Source: Styela clava
Taxonomy: Eukaryota
DNA: 64,000 nucleotides
NCBI RefSeq assembly: GCF_964204865.1
Contig: NC_135250.1
Location: forward strand, 26,412,001 to 26,476,000
Reading direction: 5' to 3'
Below, in pieces: positions 6,101 to 41,659 of this stretch. A model generated the notes under the pieces. That model saw nothing but the letters and a program-made list of their open reading frames with translations. It was not told the DNA's origin and did not search any database. Positions within the stretch are counted from its first letter, which is position 1. Each line of letters opens with the position of its first letter. The position numbers and the translations under genes were made by a program.

Positions 6101-7055
6101 TTAGTAATCCCGTTGTATAAGGACCAGGTTAGGATTAGGCAATAATTTTATTCCCATTTTCCTTGATTTAGTTCTATTACGAGTTCGGGGACTGTCTCTG
6201 TTAGCCAAGTGAATACACCCCCTGACTATAGGTTTCAGTTCCTTCACACATTCTAATGTAAAATATTCGAACAAAATTTGTTACCTCCATATTAGTACAC
6301 ATTTATACTACTGGAGCGCCTTCTAATTGTCACTATTAATTAGTCTAATATAAATAATGACGTATGGAACGGAAGAAAAATAAACACACAAAGCTCACGA
6401 CAAAGTAGTATCAAATCTTTTACAATACCGGCAGTCTTCTTTATCAAAAAACTTCCTACTTAGCTGACCACCAGATCTCTGATATACGATCGTGAAATCG
6501 GCGCATGGTGCGCACTCTTTAATTTTGATGACGAAATCACATAAAACTTAAAGGTGGAAAAAAAAATTACAGAGCTCACGGAATTTTAATAGTAATAAAA
6601 AGTAATCGCCTTACAGCAAAAACAACATTTATTAACCACTCCAAATTTTAAAGCAATTGATCGAGTGATAAAGGAGAATGACAATTTTGTCACAAAAATA
6701 GCGACAAAGAAAAGAAGAATACAAGCAACATCCAGAATTTTCACAAAAAAAGTCCATGGGTCAACTTTGTGCTCAATGTCCACGCAGAAATCACGAAATG
6801 CGACTCATATTTTACTTTTGATGTATTCTATATCTTTTCTATCACAGAAAAGATTGTCAATTCCAATTAACCTTCAGACATTAAGCTTTCATTCATTTTT
6901 CAAGTAGTGCATCTTCCTTTACATTCGCTAACCAACTACATTATTTTATCAGTTGAGGGAACTCCAACAATTAACCATATTCCGAATTACACGTGCAACT
7001 CCAGTTTATTAATCTCGTGGGAACCTCACAAAAATGCAGTTGGATTTCCTCACAA
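3140..7055 (+). pseudogene. Truncated long-form paralog (copy 1): SP, CTL, Ig and half FN3; pseudogene, or possibly a secreted CTL-only lectin
   Basis: Exons 3140-3200, 4375-4531, 4989-5108, 5291-5412, 5678-5944, 6953-7055 are homologous to copy 3. Lesions: CAA>TAA at 3197-3199 at the end of the signal-peptide exon; donor GT>AT at 5413 (read-through stop 5436-5438); all downstream exons removed by a breakpoint at ~7712. Confidence 0.8.
3625..3885. repeat. Related MITE subfamily copy with an internal perfect 60-bp tandem duplication (3751-3810 = 3811-3870)
   Basis: Direct reading. Related copies at ~16057-16242, ~6120-6320, ~19635-19847 and ~54919-55120. Confidence 0.7.
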
Positions 7056-8290
7056 GTGAGATTATTTTAATGGTCCAATACTTACTATCCTCGTTATTTA
7101 CATTTGATCCGAGTCAATTTTTGTGCTTTTTTTGGAGCAAAATATTTTGGGCTTTAGTTTCAGTATTTTAGTAGATTGTCATAATCAAAGTCGCGACTTG
7201 AGATTACCTAACAAAATTATATGAGAAAGCGATTGCGTATAAAATGATATACGGGATATTCTGATTTTTCCTCTTTTAATTTCGCTTTTAACCGTTATTT
7301 CTTATGAGCAATGTAAACATGAATATGCGTATTTTAGGATGCGTCATTGACGTTTTTTCATAGTTTGGTCAGGTAATATTGTTTTTGTTTGTAGTTTTAA
7401 GTGAATGTATAACATTCGAAATATGACTTGGGCTTCCGGGTAACGATGAAGTTGTCTAATCTGATACCTTTATTGTTGTGTCTTATTTTGCAACCTTTCA
7501 TATTAAAGGAATATATAGCAATTTAGCAAAGTTTCTTTTGTTAAAATTGAAAGCGTAAAAATTTATTAGAAAAAATATAGCAGCAGAGCTCAAGCATTCT
7601 TGCCGATACCTTTCGACTCGTATTAAAAGAGTTAGTCAAACTTAATGGTAAGTTTCACAAGGTTGAAAAATTTGTTTTTAAATAAGGGACACCCTAAAGC
7701 CGTAGAATAGCATTAGAAAAAAAAGCAATAGAATAGCAACTTATAGCAGAGGGGTCATGCAATTAACGATGCATAGGCTAGAAAGTCTCATCGTTTAAAT
7801 AAGTTGGTTGCCGCCGATCTAAGTATAATCTCAATTATCGTGACGCACTTGTTTTGCCGAAGGCTGCCTTTGATCAAAATGCCTTTGAATAGTAGTAGGA
7901 TTGTGAGCTAAATATCATGATTTTTCTTACTCAATTTTTTTTCAAATCGATAAAAAACTAAAGCTCTACCTACCTCTGGCTTTTCTAGCTTCAATTTCAT
8001 TTTCCAGGATGTGTTGTTCGATGATATCGCTTTCGCAAAATATGTGTCAAAAAATCATCACTGTCTTTCTTTGATTGTCCGCAAACAGAATTCAAAATAT
8101 TATCAAAAATTTAGATGTATATCTCAATATTAAGTATAATTTTTTATAAAATAGGTTTATCAAATACTCTGATATCGCATGGTGGTCGCAAGATGATTGC
8201 GTATGCGAGATGATTGCGTATTTATTACACTTCACCAATGGCATGATTGCGCACTCAAGACATGGTCTGTTATTCCTGGATTCGCAATTC

Positions 8291-8526: not shown

Positions 8527-9583
8527 CGCAATTCTATACAAATGCCGTAGCCATATTTAACTAAAGAATAAAGCGATTTATATTCGGTTTTTAGAATTTT
8601 ATGGAAAGGAAAGTTGGTGGAAAGTCGTTATAATCCTTCTAGTGTGGTCATTTTAAAAATTTACCATTATAGCACAAATTGATGACACGTATATTCTGAC
8701 TCCTGACTATCGATCCATGAGGAAATTATCCATGAAGAAATTGTTATTCCGATCTATTGACACTACTCAATATTCATTCGTTTATGCCTGATTCACGTTT
8801 AATAAAAGGTCGATTTGCAATAAAGTTAAGCGACAATAGCGTATACGCATTTCCCGGTATTCTTGCTAACATATTTTGTTGATTTAATAGTATATGTAAC
8901 TCATAGAGTGAACTGTAGGTGAATAGATGAAAACAAAAGAATTTAACTCAGATTCACAGCCGCAAATAATATGGCACATGGGTAGTCAGAATAGAGTCAC
9001 GAGTTAAATTAATTTGAAACGTGGATTCCGATTTGTCAGTTTTTGTTTTGGTTGGCATATTGAATCATTTAAGAAAAAGTATTCACAGTTGCACAGAGTA
9101 TTGCCAATTTGAAGAGTTGTTTAATTTTTCACATGATAAATTAGTAAACACGTTGTGGTAGGGCATGTGGGCGTCTGCTACTTCCCTTAAATGAATTGAT
9201 GACAGGTTAGACTATCAATTTAGATTTTAGAATCGCATAGATGCAACTTGCACACATCTCGTTGTACGATTATTACCTTGTTACGAAGATGTAGTTAGAT
9301 TAGAAGGGAAACATTTTTTAAATTTTTGAGTAGTGCTTTTTCTGTCAGTCAAAACGATCTAATGAGTTTCTCCACATATTTCGTAAACAATTTATAATCG
9401 CTGCTTAATCTACGATTTAGATGCTAGTGGCACCTATGGGATTTTAAAATTGAATATATATTGACTGCATTTTTTACATATTTTGTTACTCTTTTATGTG
9501 CTTCTATCCTTCTATCATACGCTACAATGCATTTATAAGTCGTTAGGAATATTTAAGATTGAAACTCTTTATCGGAATACAAG

Positions 9584-9644
9584 ATGAATTTAGGAGACTT
9601 GGCGATTTTGTTTTTTTCGATCACGCATATATCTATAGGTCTAG
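9584..9644 (+). pseudogene. Orphan signal-peptide exon of a short-type paralog (copy 2)
   Basis: MNLGDLAILFFSITHISIGL + G|GTACGT. The exon and flanks (7748-10555) closely match 30791-36776, but homology stops at ~10555 and no CTL exons follow. Confidence 0.75.
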
Positions 9645-10190
9645 GTACGTATATTTTTTTAATTACTTTTCTACTACTCAATGAAAATTTTGGCAAAAAT
9701 AGTCAGTTTAAAGATACTAATCGAACGGATGAGCCGTCGAACAAATATTTCGTCCGTGAATACCGAAAACCATTATTCGAATTTAAACTACGTGTTGGGT
9801 TAAGTTTATCTTTTAATATCGATTAGCAGAGGCAACATTCAGTGTAATCACATTTCTTGTTTGTTTTAAATCGTAAATTTTTATACTGGTGGTAGTTCCA
9901 ATTATTAAAATTAAAACAAAATAGTTTTACCTGTCATGGTGATATCGTGATTATTTCGAATAAGTTTTCAATATTTGTTTATTGTTTTCTGTTCTTATCA
10001 CTGAATAACGCAGGTTAAAAAATGTTCTTACTTTTGATATAATGTTTTTTTTTAGTTTTTTAAATGGATTGAATAATTGGTTACAATCATTTTCCAAAAA
10101 ACCCAAAAAATATACTGCATATACTTTTCTTGGCAATAAGAGATATTGTAGTGTAAAACCTTGCTGTGGTGGCATAAGTTTACAACAATC

Positions 10191-15549: not shown

Positions 15550-18500
15550 ATGAACTTGAGAGTTTTGGCAATATTGTTATACGCGATCACGCATGTTTCT
15601 TCAGGTCAAGGTACGTATTTTATTTTAATTATTTTTGTAACACTGATAACACTGATAAGAGGAATACTTCTACTACTTGATGGCAAATTTCGAAAAAATT
15701 GTCGGTCATTTATAAAAATTGCTCATTCGAGCGTATGAGTCGTCACATAAACATTTCCTCCGCGAATACCAGAAACTAGTATCCGAATCTAAACTACGTG
15801 TTGCGTTAGGATCATATTTTGATATGAGTTGCAGAGCCAACATTGAGTGTAATCACACTTTTGATTTGTTTTCAATCTTAAATGTTTATACTGGTGCTAG
15901 TTCCAATTATCAAAATTAAAAAAAAGAATTGTTTCATCTGCCATGGTGATTTTGTGATTATTTTGAGTAATTTTCCAATATTTATTGTTTTCTGTTCTTA
16001 TAACGTGAGTAAATAACTCCGATTAAAAAATGTTAGTATTTGTGATATATTGTTTTTGGCGCCAGAGAAGTGTGTGTACCAATATGGAGATAACTAACTT
16101 TGTTTGCCTACTTAACATCAAGTTGTGTAAAAGGCTAAAATCCATGGGCATGAGGTATAATCACCTAGCTAACACAGACAGTCCCGAACAGTCCGGGAAA
16201 ATCAAAATAAAATTTTGGCCTAACCCTAACCTGGTACACACACTACAAGAGTACCGTTTTCTTTAACATTTTAAGCACAGTCATTGGAATGGATAGTTTA
16301 GTTACAATCATTCTCGACACCTAAAAATATATTTGAAATGTTTTCCTTGGCATTAAGAGATAGAGTGATCTAAAACTTTGAACTCAGAGATAATTTCACA
16401 AAATGATTATAGATTCTTGCTTGACCACAAGTCAAAATTATTGACTTGTTGACGTTTCGTTTGAACAAAGCAGAACTTTATCAGACAGCCATATGTCAAT
16501 TATCATAGCAAAGCAAGACAAAACATTATTTATCGTTCCAACAAAACCAAATGAATTGAAAGAGCGATTTGAACATCAGTCGCAAATAGCAAGATAACAA
16601 TACTTCAAAAACTTTCTTTGTTATTTTAATTCGTACGCGACAATTTCTACATATATGTTGTAATTTTGCAAGTCACTTCCCCAATAATAGACATAAATGA
16701 ATAGATGTTTTCTTGAACATTACTTTCTATTTATAGAACCGTGGAGAAGCGAATGTATTGATGGATTCAAACTTCTATTTTTCCACGAAACGAAAAATTA
16801 CACTGAAGCAAAATCAGCTTGTGAATCTGCGGGAAGTTATCTCGTCAAAGTTGATAATCAAAAAATAACTGACGTGATAAATGATGTACTCAGGTGAGTT
16901 GCATTCACCGTTTACGAGAACAAAACATTTTATTTTTATAGTCAATTAATTCTTCTCCTCAATAGTGCTATTTTTCATGTATTTTGGACTAAATCGGATC
17001 GGTGGATATATTCCAAAATACCGATATATTTGCTATATAGGACACGTTTTCATTTTAACGTGAGGTAGTTACATAGGATTTGAATGAGCCGTGATATGAT
17101 AACGCACATGCAAAACATTGATAAGAATAAGCTCCACTGTTTTATGTGGATATATTCTGCCAATTATTCAGAAAACTTGTGCTCTCTTATAGGTATTGCA
17201 GGAGCTTTCAGGCCATATATTCCATCTTCGTGCCTTGTTCACGTGCACGATGTTAACTCAAATCATATTTAAATTCCAAGCTATAGTTGGTCAATTTGCG
17301 TTTACACTTATTTTTCGTGTAATAATTATTTTAATTTCAACCTATTCAGAAACAATCTATTCAGCGAAACATTTTTCACGGGAGGGAACGACATAGCTAA
17401 TGAAGGTGACTGGAAATGGCAGGACGATACTGACGTAATAAGGAGAGGAGAGGAAGGATATCAAAACTGGTTAGCTATCAACATATTCTCAAAGCTTTTT
17501 GAACTTCCATGCCAAATAAAATTATGGAGTAAAAAAATTGATATCAAAATACAAAAAATCTCTTAGCCAATTATTGGCAACCTCATTGTAGCTATGTGCA
17601 ACAAAACTTTGAGTTGTCAGTTCATCTTTTCTTTTTTTGATGCAGGGGGGCTACAGAACCAAACGCGGAAAATGAGGATTGTTTGGTTGTTGTTCAGGAT
17701 GATTTTGTTTGGAGAGATTATAAGTGCGAGGAAAAACGTAATTTTATTTGCCAAAAAGGTGATGAAATAGATCAGATGTCGTAGCTCCCTCATAAATCTT
17801 GTCGAATTTCACAAAAACAAATAATTTTATAACGAAAATATCTGGTTTTGTAGCACTAAAATAAAGTTATGATTCCCCAATATATAATATACACGATAAT
17901 TCATGTTTAGCATCAAATCATAATACAGAAGCTTTATATTATTTCTGCAAAACAACTAATAAGCCATAAGTACAGTAAAATTTATATACGAACCTCATGT
18001 ACCCTAGTATATGTTTTAGTTTGAAATATACCACCAGTTTTTAATATGAAAAGTCATCACCTCCTTGAATTGATAGTTCTATCAAATATATCAAGGGTGG
18101 CCAACCTGCTTTCGACCGCGATCGACTAAGTTCTTCAAATTAGCTCTCGTTCGACTAATCGGTAATAAAGGCATAAACAAAAATGTATGAATACTGGATA
18201 CGCAGATAACCGCACACACGCATACAAAAATTCCACAGCTTCCAATAAGCTCGGATCTGCCGGCGCATTCTCAGAGAAATTGCAACAAAAATTTCCCCTT
18301 TTAATTTTTTCATATTCCATTGAATTTGTTAATTTGATTATTTAATTGTACCCGGAGTAAATGTTTCATCATTTATTTTAAATTTATTCAAATCCTACAA
18401 TTCAGATCTAGGGCCTGTCTACTTTTTAGTCGTAAGTGTTTTCAATTCCAAAATAAACCTTGAAAAGTATCCATGTATTATCTAAAAAGCGAATAATGAA

Positions 18501-21500
18501 CATTTTCGAACCATAAATGTTACATGACTGCTTAAACTTCATTATCTAATTTACAATTAATTTAAATGTGATTCTGTGCTCGCTTGCAATTAGAAAAAAA
18601 GGGCATTCTGTTGCCACTGCTACCGTTTCGAATTAAATTTATCACACTACTCTTGGAGTGAGACAATAACTTTCGCACAGTGCAGAAATTATTGTAGAAT
18701 CGTTTGTCAAGGCACACAATATTCCGCAAGTTTATTTCTAAAACTTGGCAGTAGTGAAACTTTTGTTACGTGATATTATACTCCATTGGACTTGTCCATA
18801 CCCAATCAGGGTACTGCATGTGTATATCGTATTTTGCGCATGTACAGTACCATATTCTTCCTGTTTTAAAACACACAACAGGCACTGTATGAAACCGGTT
18901 CAAGGCAATTTTTTGGGGTATGTTATTAAATTTATTCAACGTCAGACGCGATCGACTACTCGAGACGTGGCGATCGACCGGTCGATCGCGATCAACGTGT
19001 TGGCCACTCATGAAATATATAAACCGACGGCCGCGGTGAAGGTACCTAGTGAGTGAGTTGATTTAAAATGCTACCCAAAAAAGAATTTTATGCAATATTC
19101 ATTGTTGGTATTTTTAGGTTATTTATATGGTCGTCATGCACGTGGTATAACTTCAATAAAATCTAATCTTTGATGTACAATATCATTAAAAACAGAGTTC
19201 CAGGGTCCTTTTCTGGAAATTCAAAGTACAGGTCAAACTCAGATGACTTGTACTAAGACCATGTGTAACAAGGGTACTAATGTTGAATGGTATACGAGTT
19301 TCGTGATACCAACAGATCCTAGCAAGCGTGTTTATCAAACAAAGCAATCTGGATCAGCAATATTACATCTACAAAACGCAGATATATCAGATGCAGGAAA
19401 CTACTTCTGTTGGTCTTGGGTTAACGGTGTTAAACAAGGAGGAAACAAAATTGAATATGAAGGTAACATTGATATAAAATTGTTGGCTGTTTATTCCCGT
19501 TTTAATTGAAACTGTCTGATTGAGATCTCATATTCTAAAGCCCTATGCAAGAGACATGTTCCATCACTCGGCTACAGTAGCGATCAGCTCATACACGCAG
19601 TTTCTAGACTAGGACATTTAGTAATCCCGTTGTATAAGTACCAGGTTAGGATTAAGCAATAATTTTATTCCCATTTTCCCTGATTTAGTTCTGTTACGAG
19701 TTCGGGGACTGTCTCTGTTAACCAAGTGAATACACCCGCTGACTATAGGTTTCAGTTCCTTCACACATCCTAATGTAAAATAATCGAACAAAATTTGTTA
19801 CCACTATATTGGTATATATACTACTACATATATACTACTGGAGCGCCAAACATTTTCAATTGTCACTATTGATTAGTCGAATATAAATAATGACGTACGA
19901 AACAGAAGAGCAATACCTACATATACATATAGACACAAAATTCACGACAAAGTAGTATCTCATCTTTTACAATACCGGCAGTCTTTCTTATCAAAATACT
20001 TCCTACTTAACTGACCAACGGATCTCTGATATACGATCGTCAAATCGGCGCATGGTGCGCTCTCTTTAATTTTGTTGACGAAATCACATAAAACTTCAAG
20101 GTTAAAAAAAAAAATAATAGAGCTCATGGATAATAAAAAGTAATCGCTTTACAGCAAAAACAACATTTATTAACCCTCCAAATTTTAAAGCAATTTATCG
20201 AGTGATAAAGAAGAATGACAATTTTGTCACATAAATAGCGACAAAAAAAAAGAAGAATACAAGCAACATCCAGAATTTTTACAAAAAAAGTCCATGGGTC
20301 AACTTTGTGCTCAATGTCCACGCAGAAATCACGAAATGCGACTCATATTTTACTTTCGATGTATTCTAGGTTTGTTCTATCACAGAAAAGATTGTCAATT
20401 CCAATTAACCTTCAGACATTAAGCTTTCATTCATTTTTCAAATAGTGCATCTTCCTTTACATTCGCTAACCAACTACATTATTTTATCAGTTGAGGGAAC
20501 TCCAACAATTAACCATATTCCGAATTACACGTGCAACTCCAGTTTGTTAATCTCGTGGGAACCTCACAAAAATGCAGTTGGATTTCCTCACAAGTGAGAT
20601 TATTTTAATGGTCCAATACTTACTATCCTTGTTATTTACATTTAATCTGGATCAATTTTTGTGCTTTTTTTCGAGCAAAATATTTTGGGCTTTAGTTTCA
20701 GTATTGTCATAATCAAAGTCGCGACTTGAGATTACCTAACAAAATTATATGTGAAAGCGATTGCGTATAAAATTATATACGGGATATTCAGATTTTTCCT
20801 CTTTTAATTTCGCTTTTAACAGTTATTTCTAATGAGCAATGTAAACATGAATATGCGTATTTTAGGATGCGTCATTGAAGTTTTTTCATAGTTTGGTCAG
20901 GTAATACTGTTTTTGTTTGTAGTTATATGTGAATGTATAACATTCGAAATAAGACTTTGATTTCCGGGTTACGATGAAGTTTTATAGTCTGATACCTTTA
21001 TTGTTTCGTATTATTTTGCAGCATTTCATAAGAAATTTACAGCAATTTAACAAAATTTTTCTTTGATAAAATCAGAGGCGTAAGAATTGATTAGAAAAAA
21101 TATAGCTGAAGCGTTCAAGCATTCTTGCCGATACCTTCCGACTCTTATTAAATGAGTGGTAATTAAGGTTGAAAAATTGTTTTGAAGCGAGGGACACCCT
21201 AGATCCGTAAAATAGCAAGTAATTGCTCGTTCGGACTATATCAGAAAAACGATAGTTTTTGAATAACTTATAATAATGTTCACTGTGTTCAATTTCGTGC
21301 TACTCTTTGATTTTTTTTTTTTTTAGAATTTCAACAAGATCATGGATTAATAAAGTAAAAACAAAATGGGTCACACCACTGAAACCCCAGCCACAGTCGA
21401 CATTGATAAATAATTTAGATTCCGATACAACATATAAACTACGTGTAAGAAATATTTATTTTGACCCTAAAAATAGCCGACCGAATTAGACTAGATTCGA

Positions 21501-24500
21501 CAATAACAAGTAAAAAATGACTCAACATATTTCCACAAATGTTGCACCGTGTGGTACAATGCAATTGGAAGTTGGCAGATAACCAAAGTGGCAAATTTTT
21601 TTGAAATACTAGAATTTGGGCCAAAACGGTTATTCTCAGAAAGCCCGCGGAGAAATATGAAAAAAAAACGTAAAAGCAATTGGATGTTGATGGACATTTT
21701 CATTTTCAACAACTAAAATATTTAAATTTTGATTTTTTTGATCTCAACAAAATAGTAATCCATAATTCCATATGTATCAAATCAGAAAATAAAATGTTTT
21801 TTGAAGTAAAAAAAATGATTTCGATATTTTACTCTAGAATATTATAATTTATGCACTAGGCAAAGTGTTAAAAAAGATTAATAATTTTTTTCAGATTAGA
21901 GCATGCTTATCAAAATTTGTGTGTCCAGAAATGATCAATAATCGTTTGCTTGCACGAACAATCGTAAAACCAGGAGGAAAAGCTTTAAGCGTAAAGTCAG
22001 CTTTCATTAAACAAAGTGAGGAAAATGAAACCTGCGTTATATCATGGGATATAGTTAATGAAGAAAGCATGGAATTGTATACAGTGGTAAGTCAATAATT
22101 CACCTCTATTGTTTATTTACTCTCTGTTTCGGTGCAACAAACGATTTATTTGTACATTAATACCCATATTCTAACATAGTTCAAAAATCAGCTTACGCTA
22201 AATTCAAAAATGTGTAAAGTGTAATTGTGAGGTATAAACGGAATCCACGTTAAACCTAGGTGTAAAAAATTGGTGATTTCAAATCATAATAATATCAATA
22301 CTCTTAAGAAATGCAGTACGACGCAATTATGACTAACCTTATTTTGAGGGATAAGTAATGAAATTTCAAAACAGATCTAAAATAAGATTATTTTGCAACA
22401 TATTGCTGAGGCATGAAATATGAAAATTTGCGAATTGAAAAATTATTAAGTATCTAAATTCTATGTAAAATGTAAAACAAAATATTATATAAGATTTTTT
22501 GTTCCATTAAAAATAACAAAAAAATAATTCTATCGAATATACAAATCTGTATGTGATACATCGATCATACTTCAGGAATTGGTTTTGAATTCCATTCTGG
22601 TCACAACGCGGTCTTCTGAAATACAAAATGTAGACTCAAACATATTAAATATGACATCAGCAACAGAGTATCAGTTTCAACCAAAGCCAAATCGGGAATA
22701 CTTTGCGTCCGTGGCAATCTTCAGTTGCGCCGGATCCAGTAAATCTTTGCGAGTGCATGGTGCATGTAGAGGAAGTTCGAAAGGTAAATAAAGTCGTTGT
22801 CGATTTCTATCTCTATTTCTGTGAATATGACTGTGTTTAGCGTATTGAATATACATTGAGTGTCTTATGATAGTCTTCTCGTGGAACTGCTATATAATAT
22901 TTCGATACCACGCAAAAATTCATTGTAATTTATAGCAAGAACCAGAAGTATTACCAGCAATCATAGTTAATTTCTATAAAAATGTAAATTAAGTTTATCT
23001 AGTTTTGTAAACGTACATTTAACTGGCAATCAAGTATATTACCATCCCAATATAATAAATAAAATATTTAAATATTTATTTGATGATAATTTTAGGCATT
23101 CCCGTAGCATGTGAACCAAGATGGCGGACACCTGAACATAGTATGTGTACCAGGTTAAGGTTTGGTCATAATTTTATTCCAATTTTCCTCATTTTAATTC
23201 TATAACGAGTTCGGGGCCCAGCCAAGTGACTCCCGTAGTAATTGTACCTGAAATTATGGTCTAACCATAACCTGGTACACAAACTAAGTTCCGGTGGCCG
23301 CCATCTTGGTTCACATACTACGGAAGTACCTAGTTTTCTATACAATATAGCCCCTTGTATTATTTATATTTATTCTCCTTGAACAAATTCTAGTCTTGGC
23401 AATTATTCACTTTCAGCTCCAACAATGGTTCATCCTCCTAAAATTGTTGGAGATTCAGGGATCAGCAAGAGTGGCGAAATAAATATTACGATACAAATGC
23501 CTTATGAAAGTAATGGTCTTATTAGGTGAGATCGAAAGTTTATCAAACAAAACAGCAATTCTCGAATATATGAAAACGAAGGTCACGAATCTCATACCCG
23601 TACGATAAGATCTGAGAGTATTGATTTTGCTGAAAAGAAATTGTCGTACACGCGTGACAGATTCAGAAAATATCGAATTTTCCAGTAAATCAAAATTAAA
23701 TAGCAAAACTTTGGTTGAAAAAATTGTCTTTTATATGACTGATAGCTTTTTGTTTGTTAACATAGAAATGGTACAACACAATTTACATGTAAAACACAAT
23801 GTTTTTTGCCTCCTCAATTATTTCAATCACTGATATTTTGTAGAAACAGCGCATTGCAGATCCGTTATGTTATCACATAGTCTAACCAAATTATCCCAAT
23901 CAGCCATTTTGGCCAGGATATCAGATTTTCGAGTTCTTGTATTCTGATGTTTCAGGTCATGTGATATACGACTATAAATTGCCAAATATCTTGAACTTTG
24001 ATTTTAATTGGGCCAACAAATTGGATTTGATATACTTTACTTTGCAGTTGCATATTCGTAAATGTTGACATGGACGTCTCTGAAACAAGCACTGAATTTA
24101 CAATGGATGATTTGATTACCTTCAACAGCACAGCGGATGGGGAAAAATACATCGCACTGGCAATTGAGGTTGCGAGGTAAATTTAAATGCAAAAATATTG
24201 CCACTTGATAGTCAACCATTTTACTTACCTGAGTTATTCATTCTTTTTAATGAAAAATTTCAATTTGATATCGGCAAATTGTGTCACAAATATTCATGAT
24301 GCCATTCTGAATTTATGTCTTTCAGTCACTACTTCGATTCCTATTCGATTTAAATTCATATCAGTGGCGCGCAATATGTTATATTTAAGTATATTCAGAA
24401 TTGCTTATCTTGTTCAGTAATAGAAAATTGGAACTTGGAATTCTTGAATTCCAACTTGAATTTTGTTTCCAGACAAATTAAAATTTTGACTCTAATGACT

Positions 24501-27120
24501 GATCCCAAGTATTTGTAAATAAAATCTCAATACACACTTCATGATCAGAGAAAATTAACCAAGCTCCTCTTCTAGATTGGGACTTTGTATCTCGGTTTAT
24601 GGTATACGCCAAGTTGGTCAAGAACAGTGCATAGGGATCGTTTTGTTAAATTGTTGCAGATGGGCTGATATTTGTTGCTGGCAATAATTCAGTGGCAGTG
24701 ACGTAACGTCAGACCAGCCGAACACCTTTACTACGAAGTTGCCGATCAGCTGCGATCTCACCGGTATATCAAGGCGGGGGACTTGATTTCGGTTAAATGA
24801 TGAAATGATGGCATTGCCCATTGGTATAGATAACCCACGAGAGATAAGGCACTTGATTAAATGTTCGAACAAGCTGATTATTCAATAGATTTGTGGAACT
24901 TTCGAATAAAGTAAATTGAATATAATTAAATTTTAGTATGAAAGAAAAGACTCTTAATGTTACACTCGGAGACGAGTCAGTAACTCAATGTGATATCGCA
25001 GGATTTGAAACGACACATGACGTGCCGATGGAAACCGATTTCTTATTCATCGGGACAAATAGGAAATTGAAGAAAGAAAATTCCCCAAGGTTCCTGGTGT
25101 AATATATATTATTTGACTTGATTTTGTCTGTGTTTCCATTTTATCCCAATATTCTAACCATTTTTCGTCCACAATGAATCTTTATTTCAAAACAATCAAC
25201 CCTCAAAATTTTGCGACATTTATTAATAGTTTAATTGCTTCATTTTTCCGCGTTTAGGTCAAAAGAACCACGAAATCTTTCTCGATCCAATGTATATATT
25301 TTTTTTACCTATTTCAAGCCGTAATCGCAGTTTTGTATTAATTGTGTTTTCAATATTATTAGAAGACTTTGTCAAAGCAGAAATAAAATTAAATTCAATG
25401 CGTATATATATATATTATGAAAATACTTGGAAACAACATTACAATAATTTTGTGGAATTTATGAAGGCGATGTTTTAGCAGAATCACTTGACTATGTTGG
25501 TGGGATTGGACAAACTTCAAAAAAATATGTGTAATAAGTTGGCATGCTATGAAATTACTTTTACTAGAAAATCTATATATTGTTCAAATAGCATGCCAAT
25601 AGGTCAGCACAGTAGTTGTCGTACCTATGAAATTTCAGGTAAATATAATAATACCATTGAGTAAAAATTATTAATTTTTATTCTAGCATTTCAATCGTTT
25701 CTGCAACGCCATCCGAAAAAGAGATTTACCTCAAACGAAGTTCGCAGATAACCTTGGGAACAGGTGACGTCACCGTTGTCAATTAGTTATGCCTTTTTTA
25801 CATCGAGTTGGAATACCTAAAATTACATTTGGAATTATTTATTCTTTTTTCTCGCCATTGGAAAAAAGTCGCTTTATATTACTATGTTTAATCAAGTCAA
25901 GATTGAGTTAGAAAAAATTTATCACAAATAGTTAGAAATTGAATATTTATTTTCCAATTTATATAGATGATTAGATAATAAAAGTTATATTTTGAATTTA
26001 TTCGAAAGCTTAAATTTGAATTTTTGTTCAGAAAAGAAATCTTTTACTTTCAACCTCCCGAGTTTTCTGATTGGTTTTATTATCCCACTGTTGTTCCTCG
26101 GAATCACTGGATGGATCATACGTAAACAGAAGCTCAAGATAGAGGAAATGGAACAAAACGAAGCCATAAAAATTCGTAACTACGAAACCATATCGGATCA
26201 AGGTAAAATGGAAATTACACTCTGCAAAATTTATGAACAGTATTGGGCTTGGTTTGTTAACTGCGAGACACTATTGAAATTACGGGTGCTCCAGAATTAG
26301 GTGCTCCAAGATGTCGCATAACCTGAACCCTAACCTGGTACACATACTATTTTCATGTTGTGCACCATCTTGGTTCACATACTTCAGGAGGTCCAAATGA
26401 TGATTGTGCATTAAAAAATTATCATAAACTATAGCACAGTCCTAGCGCAACGGGATTGAACAATCGGTGTTGGTTTCAATGCTAAAACACATATACATTA
26501 TATAAAAAAAATATATATATAAGCTGAAGTAGCTCTTCCAATAGTATTGATATAGATCAGTGTTTCTCAATCGTTTTTCCTTCGTGGCCCACTTTTGTTG
26601 CACATCAAATTCTGTGGCCCATTAACTTTCATATACAAAATAAAACTACAAAAGAAATGAAAATTTTGCTTCTCAAATATAAACCCTTCTAATTAACATT
26701 TAAAAGCAAAAACAGCATTATCATTCATTTAAATAAACATCGAATTAAAATAATTTATTATTAAGTTTAAAAACTTTCTAATAGATTTTCTGCCAACTTG
26801 AAAATATTTCCTATGCTCAGCAGAGGGTACTTTCCTCAACAACAAAGAACGGTCAAACTTAATAACGGTTAAACTTTAATACAGCTCAATGTATTGAAAG
26901 TACGTCCTACAAATAGTCAAACTAACCTAATAACTTGACAAATTGTGATTTTTAGTATATTTTTAGTAAATGTTTTTATTCCTCAGGAGCAACAACGTCC
27001 AACCATCAAACTGCCGAAACGGCATACGAAAATGTATTAGAAGAAAATGCTGGTTACGAACAACCACTTCCTTCAACAAGAGTTCGAGCCAACAATGAAA
27101 CCCTCTACGAAAATTATTGA
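15550..27120 (+). CDS. Type-I membrane receptor, long form (copy 3): SP - C-type lectin - Ig - FN3-like x2 - RPTP-like juxtamembrane domain - TM - Tyr-motif tail; 15 exons, 703 aa
   Basis: Phase-consistent GT-AG exons: 15550-15610, 16737-16893, 17350-17469, 17646-17758, 19196-19462, 20491-20593, 21327-21444, 21895-22086, 22576-22783, 23417-23525, 24048-24176, 24937-25089, 25687-25763, 26032-26202, 26987-27120. Sum 2112 nt with no internal stop. Motifs: CTL (AKSACES..GSYLV, FTGGND..WKWQD, EPN..EDC..WRDYKC..FICQK), Ig (C..VEW..LHLQN..DAGNYFC), FN3 (LISWEP..LDSDTTYKL), TM FLIGFIIPLLFLGITGWII, tail NYETI/TAYENV/GYEQP/LYENY. The donor at 25090 (GTTCCT) is weak but is required by phase and conserved in copy 6. 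Confidence 0.85.
18092..19012. mobile_element. Non-autonomous hAT element in the CTL-Ig intron of copy 3
   Basis: TIRs CAAGGGTGGCCAAC / GTTGGCCACTCATG. Perfect 8-bp TSD AAATATAT at 18084-18091 and 19013-19020. Empty site with a single AAATATAT in copy 1 (~5496). Confidence 0.9.
23095..23330. mobile_element. MITE, same family as 8291-8526
   Basis: Inverted CAAGATGGCGG..GTGTACCAGGTTA arms. Absent from the equivalent intron of copy 6. Confidence 0.75.
26285..26394. mobile_element. Internally deleted MITE, same family
   Basis: GGTGCTCC left end and CCATCTTGGTTCACATACTTCAGGAG right arm. Absent in copy 6. Confidence 0.6.
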
Positions 27121-28457
27121 GGCTTGATTGAGGTTTATTACATCAACTCACGGCCAATCTTTAACATAGGGTCGATCGATATGGTTCCACTTATGATCGT
27201 CGATTATTTTCATCATTGAATTATTTTTAATTTTATTGCCGGACTGGCAGTGACTAAGAAGATGCTATATATTAATAAAGTTTGATAACCACTGGTTAAA
27301 CTTACGGAAGGCTTCATTCATTGCTCCGCAACTTTAAAGAAGATGCTATATACTATATAAGCGGAGTTTTAAAAACGAATAAATATTTAAAAATGATTTA
27401 ACAAACTGTACTGAATAATAAACGCAATCTAATCATAACTTAGTGACAACAGTTAATCGACAGCTGGCAAAATTTTGTTGCAAAAAATAAAAGAGTAGTC
27501 GCGATTTTGGGGAAACAAGTTCAGACAAGGAACCCCCAAAAGTGGTGAATGTAATAATCTTTTTAAAGGAATACGAAACGAAGGTATTTTAACTGCTGAA
27601 TGATTGAAAGTATCCATAACTCTCTTCTTTTGAAATATATATTTAGAAAAATTATGAATTTAATTAATCGCTTTTATCAAATTAAATTTTGATAGTTATT
27701 GTGTCTTTTGTTGCTAATTCCATTGCAGTGTAAGTTATGAAAATGTTTAGTGATTTTGGCAAAGATACTGCCCACTATCGGTGGATGCGATTTTTAGATA
27801 AATCATACTTTTTATTTCATTGATTAAATCTATTACATGGCCAAAGAAGTACCTCATATTTGGTCTTATTTTTATTAAAAGAATTTATAAATTTGCTCTT
27901 AAATATGGACGGAAATTATCAGCTGGAATTGTTTCCTGATATAAATTGTTTCCAGGTATAATCAAGCTTAGAGGTGATTTGCTAAACGAGCAAATTGGCA
28001 TCAAATAATTTCCGTTTTCATTTAATTAAAAACTTTCTAATTAATATAAGTTGCTTGGAATATGTGGAGAAATAGACTATCGAGTGATGCCACTCCAATT
28101 TTAAGCAAATATTTTAGAATTTTAGATTTGAAAGCAAAAAACACAATAAGTGTCGAAATAGTAATTTTATATGTAATGTAAATGTGTATGTTTTTTCTTT
28201 TTTCTTGAAGCATAGAAATGTTATTTCAAATCATAAATCAAAAAGATCAATAAATTTGTAACCGAATCATGATTATAATTAAACAATGCTTTAGGCCTGG
28301 AGAAGTTAGTCCTGAGAGAATATTACAATTGCGCCTGCCTTCGATTAAATGGGAAATTTTTCATTTCATTCGTAAATATTCACATTCAAACATATTTATG
28401 GTTGAAATCACACAAAAAGAGCAAGACAGTGAGAATAGTGTTTTGTCAACAGCAACC

Positions 28458-35640: not shown

Positions 35641-36422
35641 GCTAGTGGCATCTATGGGATTTTAAAATTGAATATATATTGACTGCATTTTTTACATATT
35701 TTGTTACTCTTGAAGTGCATTTTATGTGCTTCTATCCTTCTATTCTTCTATCCTACGCTACAATGCATTCATAAGTCGTTAGGAATATTTAAGATTGAAA
35801 CTCTTTATCGGAATACAAGATGAATTTAGAAGATTTGGCGATTTTGTTTTTTGCGATCATGCATATATCTACAGGTCAAGGTACGTATATTATTTTAGTT
35901 ACCTTTCTACTACTCAATGAAAATTTTGGCAAAAATAGTCAGTTTAAAGATACTAATCGAACGGATGAGCCGTCGAACAAATATTTCGTCCGTGAATACC
36001 GAAAACCATTATTCGAATTTAAACTACGTGTTGGATTAAGTTTATCTTTTAATATCGATTAGCAGAGGCAACATTAAGTGTAATCACATTTCTTGTTTGT
36101 TTTAAATCGTAAATTTTTATACTGGTGGTAGTTCCAATTATTAAAATTAAAACAAAATAATTTTACCTGTCATGGTGATATCGTGATTATTTCGAATAAG
36201 TTTTCAATATTTGTTTATTGTTTTCTGTTCTTATCACTACATAACGCAAGTTAAAAAATGTTCTTACTTTTGATCTAATGTTTTTTTTAGTTTTTTAAAT
36301 GGAATGAATAATTTGGTTACAATCATTTTCCAAAAAACCCAAAAAATATACTGCATATACTTTCGTTGGCAATAAGAGATATGGCGAAAACCTTGCTGTG
36401 GTGGCATAAGTTTACAACAATC

Positions 36423-36527
36423 TTGTAAACTGCTTGTCTGAGGAACTCTGAGTTCGGTCAGACGAAACGCAAGCAGTTTACAACAATCTTGTAAACTGCT
36501 TGTCTGAGGAAGTCACGGAACGTTACA
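36423..36527 (+). ncRNA. Paralogous tandem hammerhead motif pair in intron 1 of copy 4 (second unit damaged)
   Basis: Same 66-bp repeat, with CTGAGGA cores at 36438 and 36504. Unit 2 has lost stem II (CTGAGGAAGTCACGGAACGTTACAG). Confidence 0.5.
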
Positions 36528-39500
36528 GAAATATATTTGTGTTAGTGTGCAGCAGGACTCTTGAATTGTAATAGTTTAGCTTGGAAAATAGGTTAATTAA
36601 AGAATTCGTTAGGATTGCAAAAAAATTAGTTTGGGAACGAGACTTATTGTTTTCAACTCTTGCTTTTGTAACACTTTAAATACTCTCCATAAAATGTAAC
36701 TTTGACTCGCCAGTTTGAGTGGACAAATTTTCTGGCACTTGGTCTAAAAACCTTGCCCACCTCTGAGCGAGTAGGCTGGGCAGTATTAAATTATCATTCG
36801 CGACGGGTTAATTGAAGATCTCAATTTCGAGCACCGTCATTTTCATAATATCCCTTGAAAATGTTAAGCAAAACAAAACTCAATCTTTTTTAATGCTCAT
36901 TAATAATGAGTATAAAATTAGTTGGGGCTGGACAAATAAACACCATTGGATATCACACTTTAGAGTAAATATCAACAATACTTGTTTTTAGTTAGTTGCT
37001 TTTGAGATTCATATTATAACTTGTTGAACACAATTTGTTGTGCTTTTTCTCAGTTCCATGGAAAACAAAATGCGTAGACCAGTATGAGCTGACTTTTTTC
37101 AATGACACCAAAAAAGATTACAAAGAAGCAAAAGCGGTTTGTGAATCAATGGGAGGATTCCTGGCAAAAGTTGATAATCAACGAATGACTGACGAAATTA
37201 ATGCAACTTTCAAGTGAGTAGATCTCTATGTGGTATTTGAATATAAAAGAGTCAAAAGTCAAAAAATAATGAAGATGATTGATTTATTAAACGTCTGTAA
37301 TCTTTTGTAAACCTTCATAAGTGAATAATTGTCATACAATCATTTTAAATGTCCCAATTTTCAATAGAATTTGCATTTAAGAATCCACAATACCGAGCAA
37401 TTATTCAATAACTATTTTTTTCTAGAATGCGCGCAGACAGATACAAATAGAATCATAATCAATCCAAATTGTTTCAAAAATCCTGAAAAATTAAAAAATC
37501 CTGATACTGATGTGATAATGAGAGGAGAAGCGGGATATCAAAACTGGTTAGTGATTAATCGTTTTGTGCAAGCTTGAAAATTTATTTTTATTTTTACTCT
37601 ATCTTCTACATGATTGAAATCCTATGAAACAAGTTAATTTATTACAAATTTAGTTATTTTAGTTGATGATATCATACATTTTATGCGTTAACGCGCAGCT
37701 AATTAAATTTAGCAATGAGTGAATTATTATAGCTCCAAATAATCTATATCTATTGTCAAAATGAAATACTTAATTTTATTTTATTACTGCATGCGCAATT
37801 GTACGTTTTTAGTTCCGAATTTGATCTTTAAAAAGTGAGGACCAAAACAAATCTCTTAAATTTTAATTGGCCTAAAAATTCTAGTTAATATTGTTCTAAA
37901 TATCTGTAGGAATTAGCAAAAAATAAATTACGAAGCAACTACAAACGAATATTTAGGAATTTACAAATATATAGAAAAGGTTTCTACGTCATATTCCATC
38001 TTTCGCAATAATTACAAACATTCACACTCCTTAAAAACAATTGAATTAAAGCGAAAAAAAACTTTAATTGGTTGATATTTAGTATCTTAAAATTAAGAAG
38101 CAATATCATATTATATTATATAAATGCAATATAATCTAACAATTATAAAATATGTGAACGAAACTGATCTTTTATTGATGCGAGGTAAAAACCAACACAC
38201 ATTATCTAAATTAAGCTTATTCCGTTGCAGGAAATCTAACCAACCAAACAGTTATGGTGGTGAAGAAGATAGTATGTTGGTAGGAAGACATACATACCAA
38301 TGGATGGACTCAAGTTGTAACGAGGAAATTTACTACATTTGCCAGAAAAGTAAGATGATCATCCAAACAGTGTTTAGAATTAAATTTTTGAATGAAACAC
38401 TCATGGGAGTATATGATCTCTTTTCCTAGTTTTGGTCCTTACTGCATGAATCAATCTATAATAATTACTTGCAATACGGACGGTTCGATAAACTGAACAA
38501 AACTGTATCGCAGAATCTTACGATTCCGTTGAATGGTTAAAGGAGAAACAAGAGTATTGATAACTAGTAACATTAGTGTGTATCAATTAACAGTGTCAGC
38601 ATCGTTGTATTTGAACAACTCTTACAGAACAGATTCTTGAAATTACAGTTGCAATTATGAAGTGAATTTTAATTGCAAAGTTGGAAAAATATTCGAATTT
38701 CGGTGATATTAGTTTGACTAAGACGAGAAGAGTAAAATTTGAAAAAGGGGCGGTGACCTTGGTTATTTGTAGTTAAATACAAAACTGAATGGATTTTTAA
38801 TAATGAATATCCACACCAAAGTTGTATGAATGACTTATTGTAACTGAATGTTAATATTGTCTATGTTGTAACTTTTACTTCATACTTACAAGGCCCGCTA
38901 GTCTGAATGGGCAAATTTTTTGGCCCCCGCTACAAAAACCTTGCCTATCTCTGATCTAGACCCATGCTAGAAATTATTCAAATAATGATATAGATAATGG
39001 AATCTAATTAATTGTTTCTCAGATTAAGGTTTTATTTAATATCGATAACTAAAATTGTAATTTTTTATTTCTTGTCTTCTACTAACAGAAAAAATTCAGT
39101 ATTTTACTAGCAATTTATCAATATTATTAGCCTGTTAAAGTTGAGGTTGATATTACTGAATAATTTGTAGCTACTGCTAATAATGTTAAATGTGAATAAC
39201 GTTAGAAACCTTATTCAATAATCTATTATACTACACTTCATGCACACGTAAAATCATGGATGCATTGTTTAATAATATTTTTTTTTTATTAATTTCAATT
39301 GTGGCAACTGTACTTTTTATGGTACCCTGAAAAATAATAATAAAGTGATATGGGATATTTAAACCCTATAATTACTTATTTACTATTAATTAGTGATGTG
39401 TAGGTAGTATTTGAATAAACCTATATTTTACGGTAGTGTCTTTTTATAAGGTAAAACATGTTTTTATTAGGAACTGTAACTAATCTCAACTGTCATTGAA

Positions 39501-39700
39501 TCATCGTATTTGATGAAACAAATTGTCAACGTAACAAACATCATTAATTGCGTCAATGTATGAACCAGAACCAAATCACGAGTTCTGGGCTTCGGTACAA
39601 AAATTGTATCGCAATAGTCCACCCATGAAAACTAATTGGTTCTTGCATTGGTAATTTAAAAAAGTAAGAGGAATATTGACTACCAGTTGCTAGGTAATTG

Positions 39701-39936
39701 GGCGTTCCAGTTGAATGCGAATCAAGATGGCGGACACCGGAACGTAGCATGTCTACCAGTTTAGGGTTGGGACATAATTTTATTCCAATTCTCCTTCATT
39801 TAGTTATAATACGATAAAGGTCTCTAGCAAACTGAATCCCGTATTATTTGTACCTGAAATTACGGCCCAACCCTAACCTGGTACACATACCACGTTCCGG
39901 TGACCGCCATCTTGGTTTGCATACTGCACGAGTGCT
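39701..39936. mobile_element. MITE, same family
   Basis: CAAGATGGCGGACACCGGAACGTAG and the inverted CCGCCATCTTG arm, with TTAGGGTT / AACCCTAACC. Confidence 0.75.
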
Positions 39937-41659
39937 GTACTTCCAGCTGAAATCTTTCATAACAAAGCTATTTTTACAATATAAACTGCAGCATTTACAA
40001 AAAGCAACAGATTCACTTAAATGAAAATTTTGCAGTGAAGAACTAACTGGAAATATTAGTAAAATCCTTTAGTATAGAAGCGTGATATACTTTGATTGCG
40101 TTCTCAACTTTTTATTTCACGTATATTTCAGAAAAAACATCGTTCAACTTTGACACTTTGAGTTTTGTGATCGGTTTCATTAGTCCTCTCCTGTTTCTTC
40201 TCATTTCAATAATGTGTATCATCCGACTGAAACAAAAGTTAAACAAATCGAAAGAGTAAGTTTGCACATTTAGGTAATCATTAATTTTGAGAGGTAAATT
40301 TAATTACGCAACATAGTAGCATAATACTTATTATTCATATCAAATCAAATTATATGAATAATGTAATTGTCAATGCAAATTGCTTTTAAGACTAGAACGA
40401 TTGCGTTTTTTATGTTGTTGTAGTAATTACACAGAAACTGTGTTATTCTCATTCCTAGATCTCCAATTGCAACGGACCATAACTACGAAACCATATCCAA
40501 TAAAGGTATGGAACATGCTGAAAATTTATCGACATTTTTTAAAAGATATGATATTTTATGCATTGATTTTTTTTAAATATTACCAATATATTAACACTAA
40601 ACTGTATTGATAAACTAATTATTTTGTTTAATTAAATTGATAGAATATAATACACGAACAAAATAATGATGTTGTACTCAAAAATGTAATGTGTTTTTAC
40701 CTCATCCTAATATTGGTTATATTATATTTTGACAGCACCAAATCCAAACCACCACTCTCAAATCTCGGGTTCAAATATTCTTCAAGAAACAGCTGGCTAC
40801 GAGCAACCACTTCCTTTAACAAGGATTCAAATCAATGTGGAATCAGCCTACGAACCGTACAATGCTTGAATTTGATATGAAGTTAATATACTGATTGTGC
40901 AAGAATTAATTAAAGTTTTGTCAATACCTATGTTCAACAACAACTCATTTTGATTTGAATAGATTTTCAGTTAAATTAGGGTTTAATTTCATTTTTTTAT
41001 GTAAATGTTTACTTATATATTATTTTAAACTTGCAATGAAATTTTATCAAAAAATCCATAATTTCCAAAATTGTTTCTTTCTTTTCAAAAAACAAATTTT
41101 TTGAAACACATCAAGTAAAGTAAAATAATTAATAACACGATAAAGAAAATAAATTACAATTTACATTTTTGATCAGCAAAAAAAATTTCCGATTCTAAAA
41201 ATGGGTGCACGCGTATTATCCGTATCAGGGCATTTTCCCATACAATCCTTAGGATAAAAACTAAAAAATATATGAATCTTAGAATATAGCAGTTAGGTCT
41301 CACGAAACAAATGAAAACACAAATTTAAATAAATTCATTTTGGTATATTATTTTCAAACATATTTATATATATGTGAATATTATTTTGAAAAAATCTCGA
41401 AATGCCTCTTCAAAGTACAGAAGGACCAACTTGAAATCTGTAAGCGTCAGCTGAATATTTTCGTCTTTTGGTTTGATTTTAACTGTAAATCTTTGTATTA
41501 GTTTGTTTATCATGAATACTTTATTACATAAAGTTGAGTTTTGTTATTATATTATGGTAATGTTATTATGGTTGCCTTAGTTGGGATTTAAAAGTGCTTG
41601 TCATTTCAACGAATGAGATCAATTGTTTTTATATGGTTATGCAGGTAAAAGATTTATGA

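What the first reader, a model, noticed from the sequence alone, without database searches (positions are those of the whole stretch)
23417..27120. Receptor-tyrosine-phosphatase-type stalk with the phosphatase domain replaced by a phospho-Tyr docking tail
Seen: exons 10-13 encode I.I.MPYESNGLISCIFVNV..KYIALAI..VTLGDESVTQC..GTNRKL..ISIVSAT. Established: this follows the juxtamembrane FN3-like domain pattern of R2B/R3 RPTPs (NGPIxxYxVxV..YIAA..FxxGD..C..YxNxxL..). Yet the ORF stops about 70 aa after the TM. Inference: the family arose from an RPTP ectodomain that lost its catalytic domain and now recruits SH2 proteins or acts as a decoy or co-receptor.
Basis: partly seen in the sequence, partly recalled or inferred. 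Interest (0 to 1): 0.72.

Follow-up and report, generated by a model that had tools for sequence, protein, structure and literature searches.

The report
Sea-squirt phosphatase receptors with swapped tails
This sea-squirt surface receptor has the same outer part as neighbouring receptor phosphatase genes but ends in a short tyrosine-rich tail instead of the enzyme, and relatives have been recombined this way more than once, so the cluster likely works as matched on/off sensors.

Summary
Confirmed and extended. The exons belong to a spliced 15-exon Styela clava gene (703 aa): signal, C-type lectin, Ig, two FN3, stalk, TM, and a 71-aa tail with five Tyr. An RNA-type contig runs through the stop into the 3' UTR. 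The predicted stalk fold (pLDDT 88.5) best matches PTPRM FN4 (Z 13.3). Nine genes on the same contig join the same ectodomain, with the same stalk introns where checked, to intact D1+D2 phosphatases; one is 42% identical to this protein over 615 aa. About 50 copies of the tail-type TM exon are interleaved with them. Tail-type stalks are not one clade (AU p 5e-39), and six genes keep a fossil exon of the tail donor in the junction intron, so the tail was swapped in. For this gene itself, swap versus ancient truncation is unresolved, and it has no close phosphatase twin. It is not an R2B or R3 member. Phosphatase-less RPTP stalks are known (uroplakins, CionaNocat); six paper searches found no phosphatase-versus-docking-tail receptor array. 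The scan earlier noted variable Tyr tails in a Styela cluster on other DNA, without the phosphatase link. Signalling is untested.

The parts
15550..15610 (+). Exon 1, signal peptide (gene g2 = P0001)
16737..17758 (+). Exons 2-4 (16737-16893, 17350-17469, 17646-17758): C-type lectin domain, with an EPN motif
   Evidence: Pfam Lectin_C E 3.6e-19 on P0001; boundaries
19196..19462 (+). Exon 5, Ig domain
   Evidence: Pfam I-set E 4.4e-5
20491..22783 (+). Exons 6-9 (20491-20593, 21327-21444, 21895-22086, 22576-22783): two FN3-type domains
   Evidence: Pfam fn3 on paralogs P0003, P0013, not on P0001 itself; the count of two is inferred from length and exon layout
23417..23525 (+). Exon 10, stalk part 1 (phase 1 in, phase 2 out)
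24048..24176 (+). Exon 11, stalk part 2 (phase 2/2), first invariant Cys
   Evidence: covered by RNA-type contigs
24937..25089 (+). Exon 12, stalk part 3 (phase 2/2), LGD..C and NRKL motifs; no furin motif
25687..25763 (+). Exon 13, stalk part 4 (phase 2/1); the following intron is the swap point in relatives
26032..26202 (+). Exon 14, TM helix plus first Tyr motif (YETI); phase 1/1
26987..27120 (+). Exon 15 coding part: Tyr motifs TAYENV, YEQP, YENY; stop
27121..27383 (+). 3' UTR covered without a splice; AATAAA at 27274 and 27378
   Evidence: contig X1#5
48809..57979 (-). Paralog g4, same 15-exon layout (close to P0002); low end approximate
35820..40870 (+). Paralog g3: lectin joined directly to TM + Tyr tail; TM exon ends in phase 2 and a small extra exon follows; lectin exon 3 looks altered
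3140..7056 (+). Partial duplicate g1 (exons 1-6 only)

Best explanation
The gene encodes a lectin-Ig-FN3 surface receptor whose whole ectodomain is shared with neighbouring receptor tyrosine phosphatase genes but whose membrane and inner part is a short five-tyrosine tail, and it likely signals by having those tyrosines phosphorylated and binding SH2 proteins, as the non-catalytic arm of a mixed phosphatase/docking-tail receptor array. Shown: gene structure, splicing to a stop, stalk fold, shared ectodomain, interleaved clustering, at least two and probably three separate pairings of an RPTP-type stalk with the same TM+tail block, and a fossil donor exon marking one of them. Inferred: the RPTP is the older form; recombination in phase-1 introns moves the block; ligand binding at the lectin/Ig tip clusters the receptor; a Src-type kinase phosphorylates the tail; YxN, YxxP and TxYxxV motifs recruit Grb2-, Crk/Nck- and SHP2-type SH2 proteins (motif preferences recalled); phosphatase sisters with near-identical tips damp the same signal.
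For: Spliced contigs from two studies cover exons 11-15, and one runs 263 nt past the stop. AF2 stalk model pLDDT 88.5; Foldseek's 3 matches at E<=0.001 are all PTPRM FN3-4; VIA Z 13.3, rmsd 2.1 A, 117 aligned, next row 9.1. Nine C1 genes carry lectin-Ig-FN3-stalk then D1+D2, with WPD and HCSAG(A/S)GRTG in 9 of 9 D1 domains; P0001 vs P0046: 259/615 identical, E 5e-157. Stalk intron phases 1|2|2|2|1 were read in full in two RPTP genes, and exon-13 phases in 8. Stalk tree: 27 tail-type rows need 3 changes; monophyly rejected, p-AU 5.3e-39. Nine tail genes with a group-A RPTP stalk have TM+tails that fall with stalk-less genes (95/84); 6 of the 9 hold an exon-9 remnant in intron 13 with a 5-residue gap found in 12 of 13 stalk-less genes and in 0 of 33 stalk-bearing genes whose hit covers the place. 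Each RPTP's best tail-type match is 71-97% per exon over exons 2-6, and the 9 RPTPs need 7 changes on the tip tree (72 of 500 shuffles as low). Clavelina RPTPs carry the stalk (P0028, P0033).
Against: This gene has no close phosphatase twin: best RPTP identity is 33-71% per exon, and intron 13 shows no donor remnant. In 2 of 20 tail-type TM exons tested (g3 and C1:26.478 Mb) the exon ends in phase 2, as in 8 of 8 RPTP TM exons, so the block may itself be an old truncated RPTP end. No canonical ITIM or ITAM in P0001. No sequence-profile link to vertebrate RPTP stalks. Two of the 4 runs laid showed no clear exon pieces, and RNA status of the runs is a guess. Several cluster members have stops or lack exons. 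No data on co-expression, ligand or phosphorylation.
Confidence: 0.68

Rival explanations
1. The tail block is an old truncation of an RPTP: the TM and juxtamembrane exons were kept, D1 and D2 were lost, and the block later spread by recombination. This gene would then descend from simple catalytic loss, as proposed for uroplakins.
For: Phase-2 TM donor in g3 and the 26.478 Mb gene; RPTP juxtamembrane regions already hold YxN-type tyrosines, e.g. P0025 ESAYENV, P0020, P0029, P0038; g2/g4 have the most divergent TM+tail; precedent in PMC5242461 (sections read).
Against: TM, tail and joint profiles score no RPTP above locally shuffled controls (best RPTP 7.0 bits, shuffles up to 12.2). It cannot explain group A alone, where a donor fossil is present. 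It differs from the best explanation only in the block's origin.
Confidence: 0.35
2. The tail-type proteins are decoys or adhesion molecules: they compete for the ligand of the phosphatase receptors or dimerise with them, and the tyrosines serve mainly as endocytosis or sorting signals.
For: YETI and YENV fit YxxPhi sorting motifs (recalled); near-identical tips in several PTP/tail pairs; no ITIM or ITAM.
Against: Tyr repeats are expanded to 9-10 Tyr in several paralogs; the motifs sit in acidic contexts and include YxN and YxxP; unrelated Tyr-rich tails follow the same stalk at other loci. This gene lacks a close PTP partner to decoy.
Confidence: 0.2
3. The tail-type receptor is the older form, and PTP modules were captured onto its ectodomain.
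For: Tail-type genes outnumber PTP genes on C1 (about 50 TM exons against 9); tips are exchanged freely, so tips may move either way.
Against: The stalk fold is the RPTP membrane-proximal domain; it sits on RPTPs in Clavelina and at other Styela loci; group A tail stalks lie inside an RPTP group and keep its furin motif (9 of 9); one stalk intron matches the Styela R3-type gene in place and phase.
Confidence: 0.07
4. Annotation or assembly artefact: the gene splices on to distant PTP exons, or the array is mis-assembled.
For: Some copies are near-identical; an older model of this locus (P0003) differs at both ends; contigs drop rare isoforms.
Against: Spliced contigs reach the stop and UTR; no PTP exon in the window (best E 0.52) and only E>=0.025 in the next 30 kb; the nearest PTP exons are upstream on the opposite strand.
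Confidence: 0.04

Closest known systems
R2B RPTPs (PTPRM/K/T/U), FN4 domain, PDB 8A16; PMC9800333 (passages read)
   Same: Stalk fold (Z 13.3, rmsd 2.1 A over 117 aa); N-terminal module + Ig + FN3 array; sister genes have tandem D1+D2 and a furin motif in the stalk.
   Different: Lectin in place of MAM; fewer FN3; this gene has no PTP domain and no furin motif; different Cys pair; the Styela R2B-like gene has stalk phases 1|0|0|1 against 1|2|2|2|1 here.
Uroplakins UPK2/3 and CionaNocat, from R3/PTPRQ; PMC5242461 (parts 1-3 of 5 read)
   Same: RPTP long juxtamembrane FN3-like domain kept, PTP domain absent, short tail with phosphorylatable Tyr; Cys after the LG motif; a phase-2 intron ten residues after the N of the NGPL-type motif.
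   Different: No C4/CNGPL; full intron pattern differs; the parent has D1+D2, not one PTP; lectin and Ig tips; about 50 copies interleaved with catalytic sisters; swap shown in relatives; weaker structural match to uroplakin (Z 7.6, rmsd 3.9).
Botryllus fester co-receptors (FcoR); PMC12582321 (abstract and section 13 read)
   Same: Ascidian clustered, recombining receptor family with multi-Tyr tails, YxxI/L/V motifs and signalling-motif switching.
   Different: FcoR use Ig-like and sushi domains and ITIM/hemITAM; no PTP sisters are mentioned in the parts read. Homology was not tested.
Vertebrate paired receptors (KIR, Siglec, SIRP, LILR; recalled)
   Same: Clustered genes, similar ectodomains homogenised by recombination, different signalling ends.
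   Different: There the inhibitory arm recruits a phosphatase through ITIMs; here one arm is itself the phosphatase. Opposed function is untested here.
R4/R2A/R1 tandem PTP domains (RPTP alpha, epsilon, sigma, LAR, CD45)
   Same: Best PDB sequence matches to the sister RPTP P0046: alpha E 8.7e-125, epsilon 5.5e-117, sigma 5.4e-116, LAR 1.4e-111, CD45 3.2e-101.
   Different: Ectodomains are unlike these subtypes; no tree with vertebrate PTPs was built, so subtype is unassigned.

Membership tests
R2B RPTP | MAM + Ig + four FN3 ectodomain (PMC9800333) | tested here: not met
   Lectin_C, not MAM
R2B RPTP | Membrane-proximal FN4-type fold | tested here: met
   Top hit in Foldseek and VIA, on a predicted model
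R2B RPTP | Furin site in the membrane-proximal domain | tested here: not met
   No RxR/KR motif in this gene or its 16 closest tail-type relatives; present in 7 of 8 C1 RPTP stalks tested
R2B RPTP | Tandem intracellular PTP domains | tested here: not met
   71-aa tail, stop, UTR; met only in sister genes
R3 RPTP / UPK2/3 | C3X(n)C4NGPL signature (PMC5242461) | tested here: not met
   Cys after LGD present, C4 absent, NRKL; the Styela R3-type gene has CNGPL
R3 RPTP / UPK2/3 | Intron phases 1,1,2,1,2 around the domain and TM | tested here: not met
   1,2,2,2,1,1 here; 1,2,2,2,1,2 in RPTP sisters
R3 RPTP / UPK2/3 | Phase-2 intron after the NGPL-type motif | tested here: met
   Same place and phase as in the Styela R3-type gene at C1:23.67 Mb; one gene compared
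R3 RPTP / UPK2/3 | FN3-only ectodomain, single PTP domain | tested here: not met
   Lectin and Ig present; sisters have two PTP domains
Pfam PTP_tm (PF18861) / Fn3_PTPRU (PF23144) | Score over the curated cut-off | tested here: not met
   No hit on P0001-3 at E<=10, on 34 relatives at E<=0.01, or on the family's exons in genome searches (exon-wise, low sensitivity)
Ascidian lectin-Ig-FN3 D1+D2 RPTP radiation (defined here) | Same ectodomain, exon layout and invariant stalk Cys pair | tested here: met
Paired receptors | Clustered genes, similar ectodomains, different signalling ends | tested here: met
   for the family; this gene's own best PTP match is only 33-71% per exon
Paired receptors | Recombination between members | tested here: met
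   Discordant stalk, tip and tail trees; donor fossil
Paired receptors | Shared ligand, co-expression and opposed signalling | not testable with these tools
   Needs single-cell and biochemical data
ITIM/ITAM immunoreceptor | Canonical ITIM, ITAM or hemITAM | tested here: not met
   P0001 fits only the TxYxxV (ITSM) pattern, YxN twice and YxxP (patterns partly from PMC12582321, partly recalled)

The most novel reading that the evidence does not exclude
Styela has a large, fast-recombining immune or self-recognition receptor system in which one pool of lectin-Ig tips is dealt out between intact receptor phosphatases (off switch) and phospho-tyrosine docking tails (on switch): paired receptors whose inhibitory arm is the enzyme itself.
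Probability: 0.35. Interest if true: 0.85.

Novelty: new variant of a known kind. Interest (0 to 1): 0.68.

Why it matters
It catches in one genome the step that had only been inferred for uroplakins: an RPTP ectodomain parted from its enzyme, with parent genes and a recombination fossil still in place. It also offers a concrete candidate for a germline-encoded recognition system in a solitary ascidian, built on a logic different from ITIM/ITAM pairing. Matched PTP/tail pairs with 80-90% identical tips make the balance of kinase docking against phosphatase directly testable, and give orphan RPTP-type ectodomains a natural reporter for finding ligands.

Tried and rejected
Single-exon Pfam scans found lectin and Ig only. 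Sequence and profile searches of the PDB with the stalk gave nothing under E 0.8. Full-length AF2 on a 9-row alignment failed, pLDDT 31.6, and was not used. The word-indexed protein search with the C-terminal half returned only 3 Styela proteins. No RNA holder was on record; runs were laid as guessed RNA, and runs X9 and X11 gave no clear exon pieces. The alternative exon-12 donor at 25098 was rejected. Homology of the TM+tail block to RPTP TM, juxtamembrane or C-terminal tails was not detected. Atlas hits all scored under 0.9 and are leads only. Paper searches for this family found nothing relevant (0, 2, 2, 0, 0, 0 papers; the listed ones judged from listing only). Exon phases of vertebrate R2B genes could not be had from papers, so Styela's own R2B-like gene was used. 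Supplements of the papers were not opened; S1 File of PMC5242461 holds the CionaNocat sequences, which were not compared. The stalk tree left out 8 genes with incomplete exon hits (1 PTP, 7 tail). Exon laying covered 21850-28400 only, so exons 1-7 have no read support here.
Full report
Observation. The coordinates cover exons 10-15 of a 15-exon plus-strand gene (15550-27120). All introns are GT-AG and the model has one open frame. A database search with the Ig exon returned the same protein at 100% identity, P0001, 703 aa, named as an uncharacterized Styela clava protein. Pfam gives a C-type lectin (E 3.6e-19) and a weak Ig match; FN3 hits appear on paralogs. The TM is followed by 71 residues with five Tyr.

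The transcript ends there. Of 4 runs laid on 21850-28400, two from different studies gave spliced contigs. X1 contig 5 (761 nt) covers exon 12, 77 unplaced letters equal to exon 13, exon 14, and exon 15 on to 27383, 263 nt past the stop. X10 contig 8 covers exons 11-15. AATAAA lies at 27274 and 27378. The runs are only guessed to be RNA, but the contigs skip the introns. No PTP exon is found in the window (best E 0.52). Rare isoforms are not excluded.

The stalk is an RPTP membrane-proximal domain by fold, not by sequence profile. Pfam and PDB sequence searches were blank. A stalk profile found 36 proteins at E<=0.001 among 1.84 billion. Of 34 new ones, 11 carry PTP domains. Of the 30 looked up, 24 are Styela, 2 Clavelina, 1 Ciona and 3 unnamed; none is vertebrate. 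A 28-row alignment shows two invariant Cys, a likely family-specific disulfide, and gave an AF2 model at pLDDT 88.5. Foldseek's 3 matches at E<=0.001 are all human PTPRM FN3-4. VIA-align against 48,161 chains ranks the same chain first, residues 585-723, Z 13.3, rmsd 2.1 A over 117 residues; the next row is 9.1 and uroplakin is 7.6. PMC9800333 (passages) places the furin loop and a disulfide of FN4 in that range.

The parents are next door. A genome search for PTP domains listed many RPTP-type loci, several directly downstream of stalk-like exons. Mapping 850 kb at C1:24.79-25.64 Mb and 224 kb around the window shows nine genes with lectin-Ig-FN3-stalk followed by D1 and D2; the nearest begins about 20 kb before the window on the minus strand. 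All 9 D1 domains keep WPD and the HCSAG(A/S)GRTG loop. P0001 and the RPTP P0046 share 259 of 615 residues from signal peptide to stalk end, and nothing after it. Stalk introns have the same positions and phases, 1|2|2|2|1, in the two RPTP genes read in full. The PTP domains are closest to RPTP alpha, epsilon, sigma and LAR by PDB search. Styela has separate R2B-like and R3-like genes: the first has stalk phases 1|0|0|1; the second has CNGPL and shares with our stalk a phase-2 intron at the same codon. The family is therefore neither R2B nor R3, and its stalk leans to R3 by that intron and one Cys.

The tail is a movable block. The TM exon has 51 matches at E<=1, the last of them doubtful. It follows exon 13 in most genes, exon 9 in stalk-less genes, and exon 4 in g3 of this window; these donors are phase 1 where read. 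On a 54-row stalk tree the 27 tail-type rows fall in three places: nine beside four RPTPs of the 24.8-25.2 Mb group, one on C18 sister to the 26.3 Mb RPTPs, and 17 that include this gene (8 incomplete genes left out). Holding them together is rejected, p-AU 5.3e-39. The nine group-A genes have TM+tails that fall with stalk-less genes (95/84). Six of them hold a piece of exon 9 in intron 13, two with stops. All six pieces carry a 5-residue gap seen in 12 of 13 stalk-less genes and in none of 33 stalk-bearing genes whose hit covers the place. That is the footprint of a recombination that put a stalk-less gene's 3' end behind an RPTP ectodomain. All nine keep the RPTP furin motif.

Tips are shared across the two kinds. 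For exons 2-6 each RPTP has a tail-type match of 71-97% per exon. On the 47-row tip tree (quick method) the 9 RPTPs need 7 changes, no fewer than chance gives (72 of 500 shuffles), with two PTP/tail sister pairs at support 100. This is the pattern of paired receptors (comparison recalled).

Limits for this gene. g2 and g4 form a long branch in all three trees. Their best RPTP match is 33-74% per exon, and g2's intron 13 has no donor remnant. The TM exon ends in phase 2 in 8 of 8 RPTPs and in phase 1 in 18 of 20 tail genes, but in phase 2 in g3 and one other. RPTP juxtamembrane regions already hold YxN tyrosines, although profiles of the block score no RPTP above shuffled controls. The block may thus be an old truncated RPTP end that later spread. 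For g2 itself, swap and truncation are not told apart.

Mechanism (inferred). Ligand at the lectin/Ig tip would cluster the receptor and a Src-type kinase would phosphorylate the tail. YENV and YENY fit Grb2, YEQP fits Crk/Nck, and TAYENV fits the ITSM pattern for SHP2 or SAP-type adaptors (preferences recalled). PTP sisters engaged by the same surface would remove these phosphates. No canonical ITIM or ITAM is present, so the sign of the signal is open. A decoy or sorting role is the main functional rival.

What is known. PMC5242461 (parts 1-3 of 5 read) derives uroplakins UPK2/3 from a PTPRQ-like gene by domain loss and reports Ciona R3-like proteins without a PTP domain, so a catalytic-less RPTP stalk is not new. 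PMC5336234 (passages) gives the R3 intron code. PMC12582321 (abstract and section 13) describes Botryllus FcoR receptors with multi-Tyr tails and motif switching. PMC10815196 (passages) added nothing. Six searches found no description of a lectin-RPTP expansion or of PTP/tail arrays in ascidians; the library lacks most subscription journals, and supplements were not opened.

Verdict. Real, expressed, and well supported as to origin: a new variant of known kinds (catalytic-less RPTP derivative; paired-receptor array). Function is untested. Interest 0.68.

Noticed in passing
window 17759-17785 (+): If intron 4 is retained, the frame closes after a few codons and gives a secreted lectin-only protein; the same short read-through appears in g4.
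   Followed up: no
window 31900-34300 (-): GC-richer insert with broken frames that look like a hAT-type transposase (motif recalled).
   Followed up: no
window 44700-46640 (+): Decayed family copy with stops in lectin exons.
   Followed up: partly
window 9041-10144 (+): Lone copy of exon 1 with upstream sequence, about 93-96% like the region before g3.
   Followed up: no
window 24048-25089, run X10 contig 8: 13 differences in exon 11 and 18 in exon 12 but only 3-4 in each of exons 13-15; only 4 of 17 listed variants match g4, so a divergent allele or an unassembled paralog.
   Followed up: partly
P0004, P0006, P0008, P0010 (C1:25.3-25.64 Mb): Tails hold a 32-residue repeat in variable copy number, up to 10 Tyr.
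   Followed up: partly
P0017, P0019, P0021, P0022, P0027, P0032, P0041: Other Styela proteins join related stalks to different TM and Tyr-rich tails, some fitting ITIM or ITAM patterns, often sister to an RPTP on the stalk tree: possible further independent losses. Gene models not checked.
   Followed up: partly
P0016, P0049: RPTP models with the stalk repeated two or three times in the ectodomain.
   Followed up: no
G000 C1, C2, C3, C10: 154 PTP-domain exon matches point to a large RPTP expansion in this genome.
   Followed up: partly
Atlas rows for P0002 and P0007: Leads under 0.9: chordate clusters of 724-750 aa with lectin + FN3 named RPTP H/eta with no PTP family listed, and a cnidarian SRCR + Fn3_PTPRU cluster of 834 aa.
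   Followed up: no
G000:C1:25.367, 25.434, 25.450, 25.530, 25.575, 25.619 Mb (+): Six headless copies (exon 11 to tail), some with stops, inverted relative to neighbours.
   Followed up: no
P0003: Older model of this locus with different lectin/Ig exons (65% in Ig) and no TM, which suggests haplotype difference or mis-annotation.
   Followed up: no
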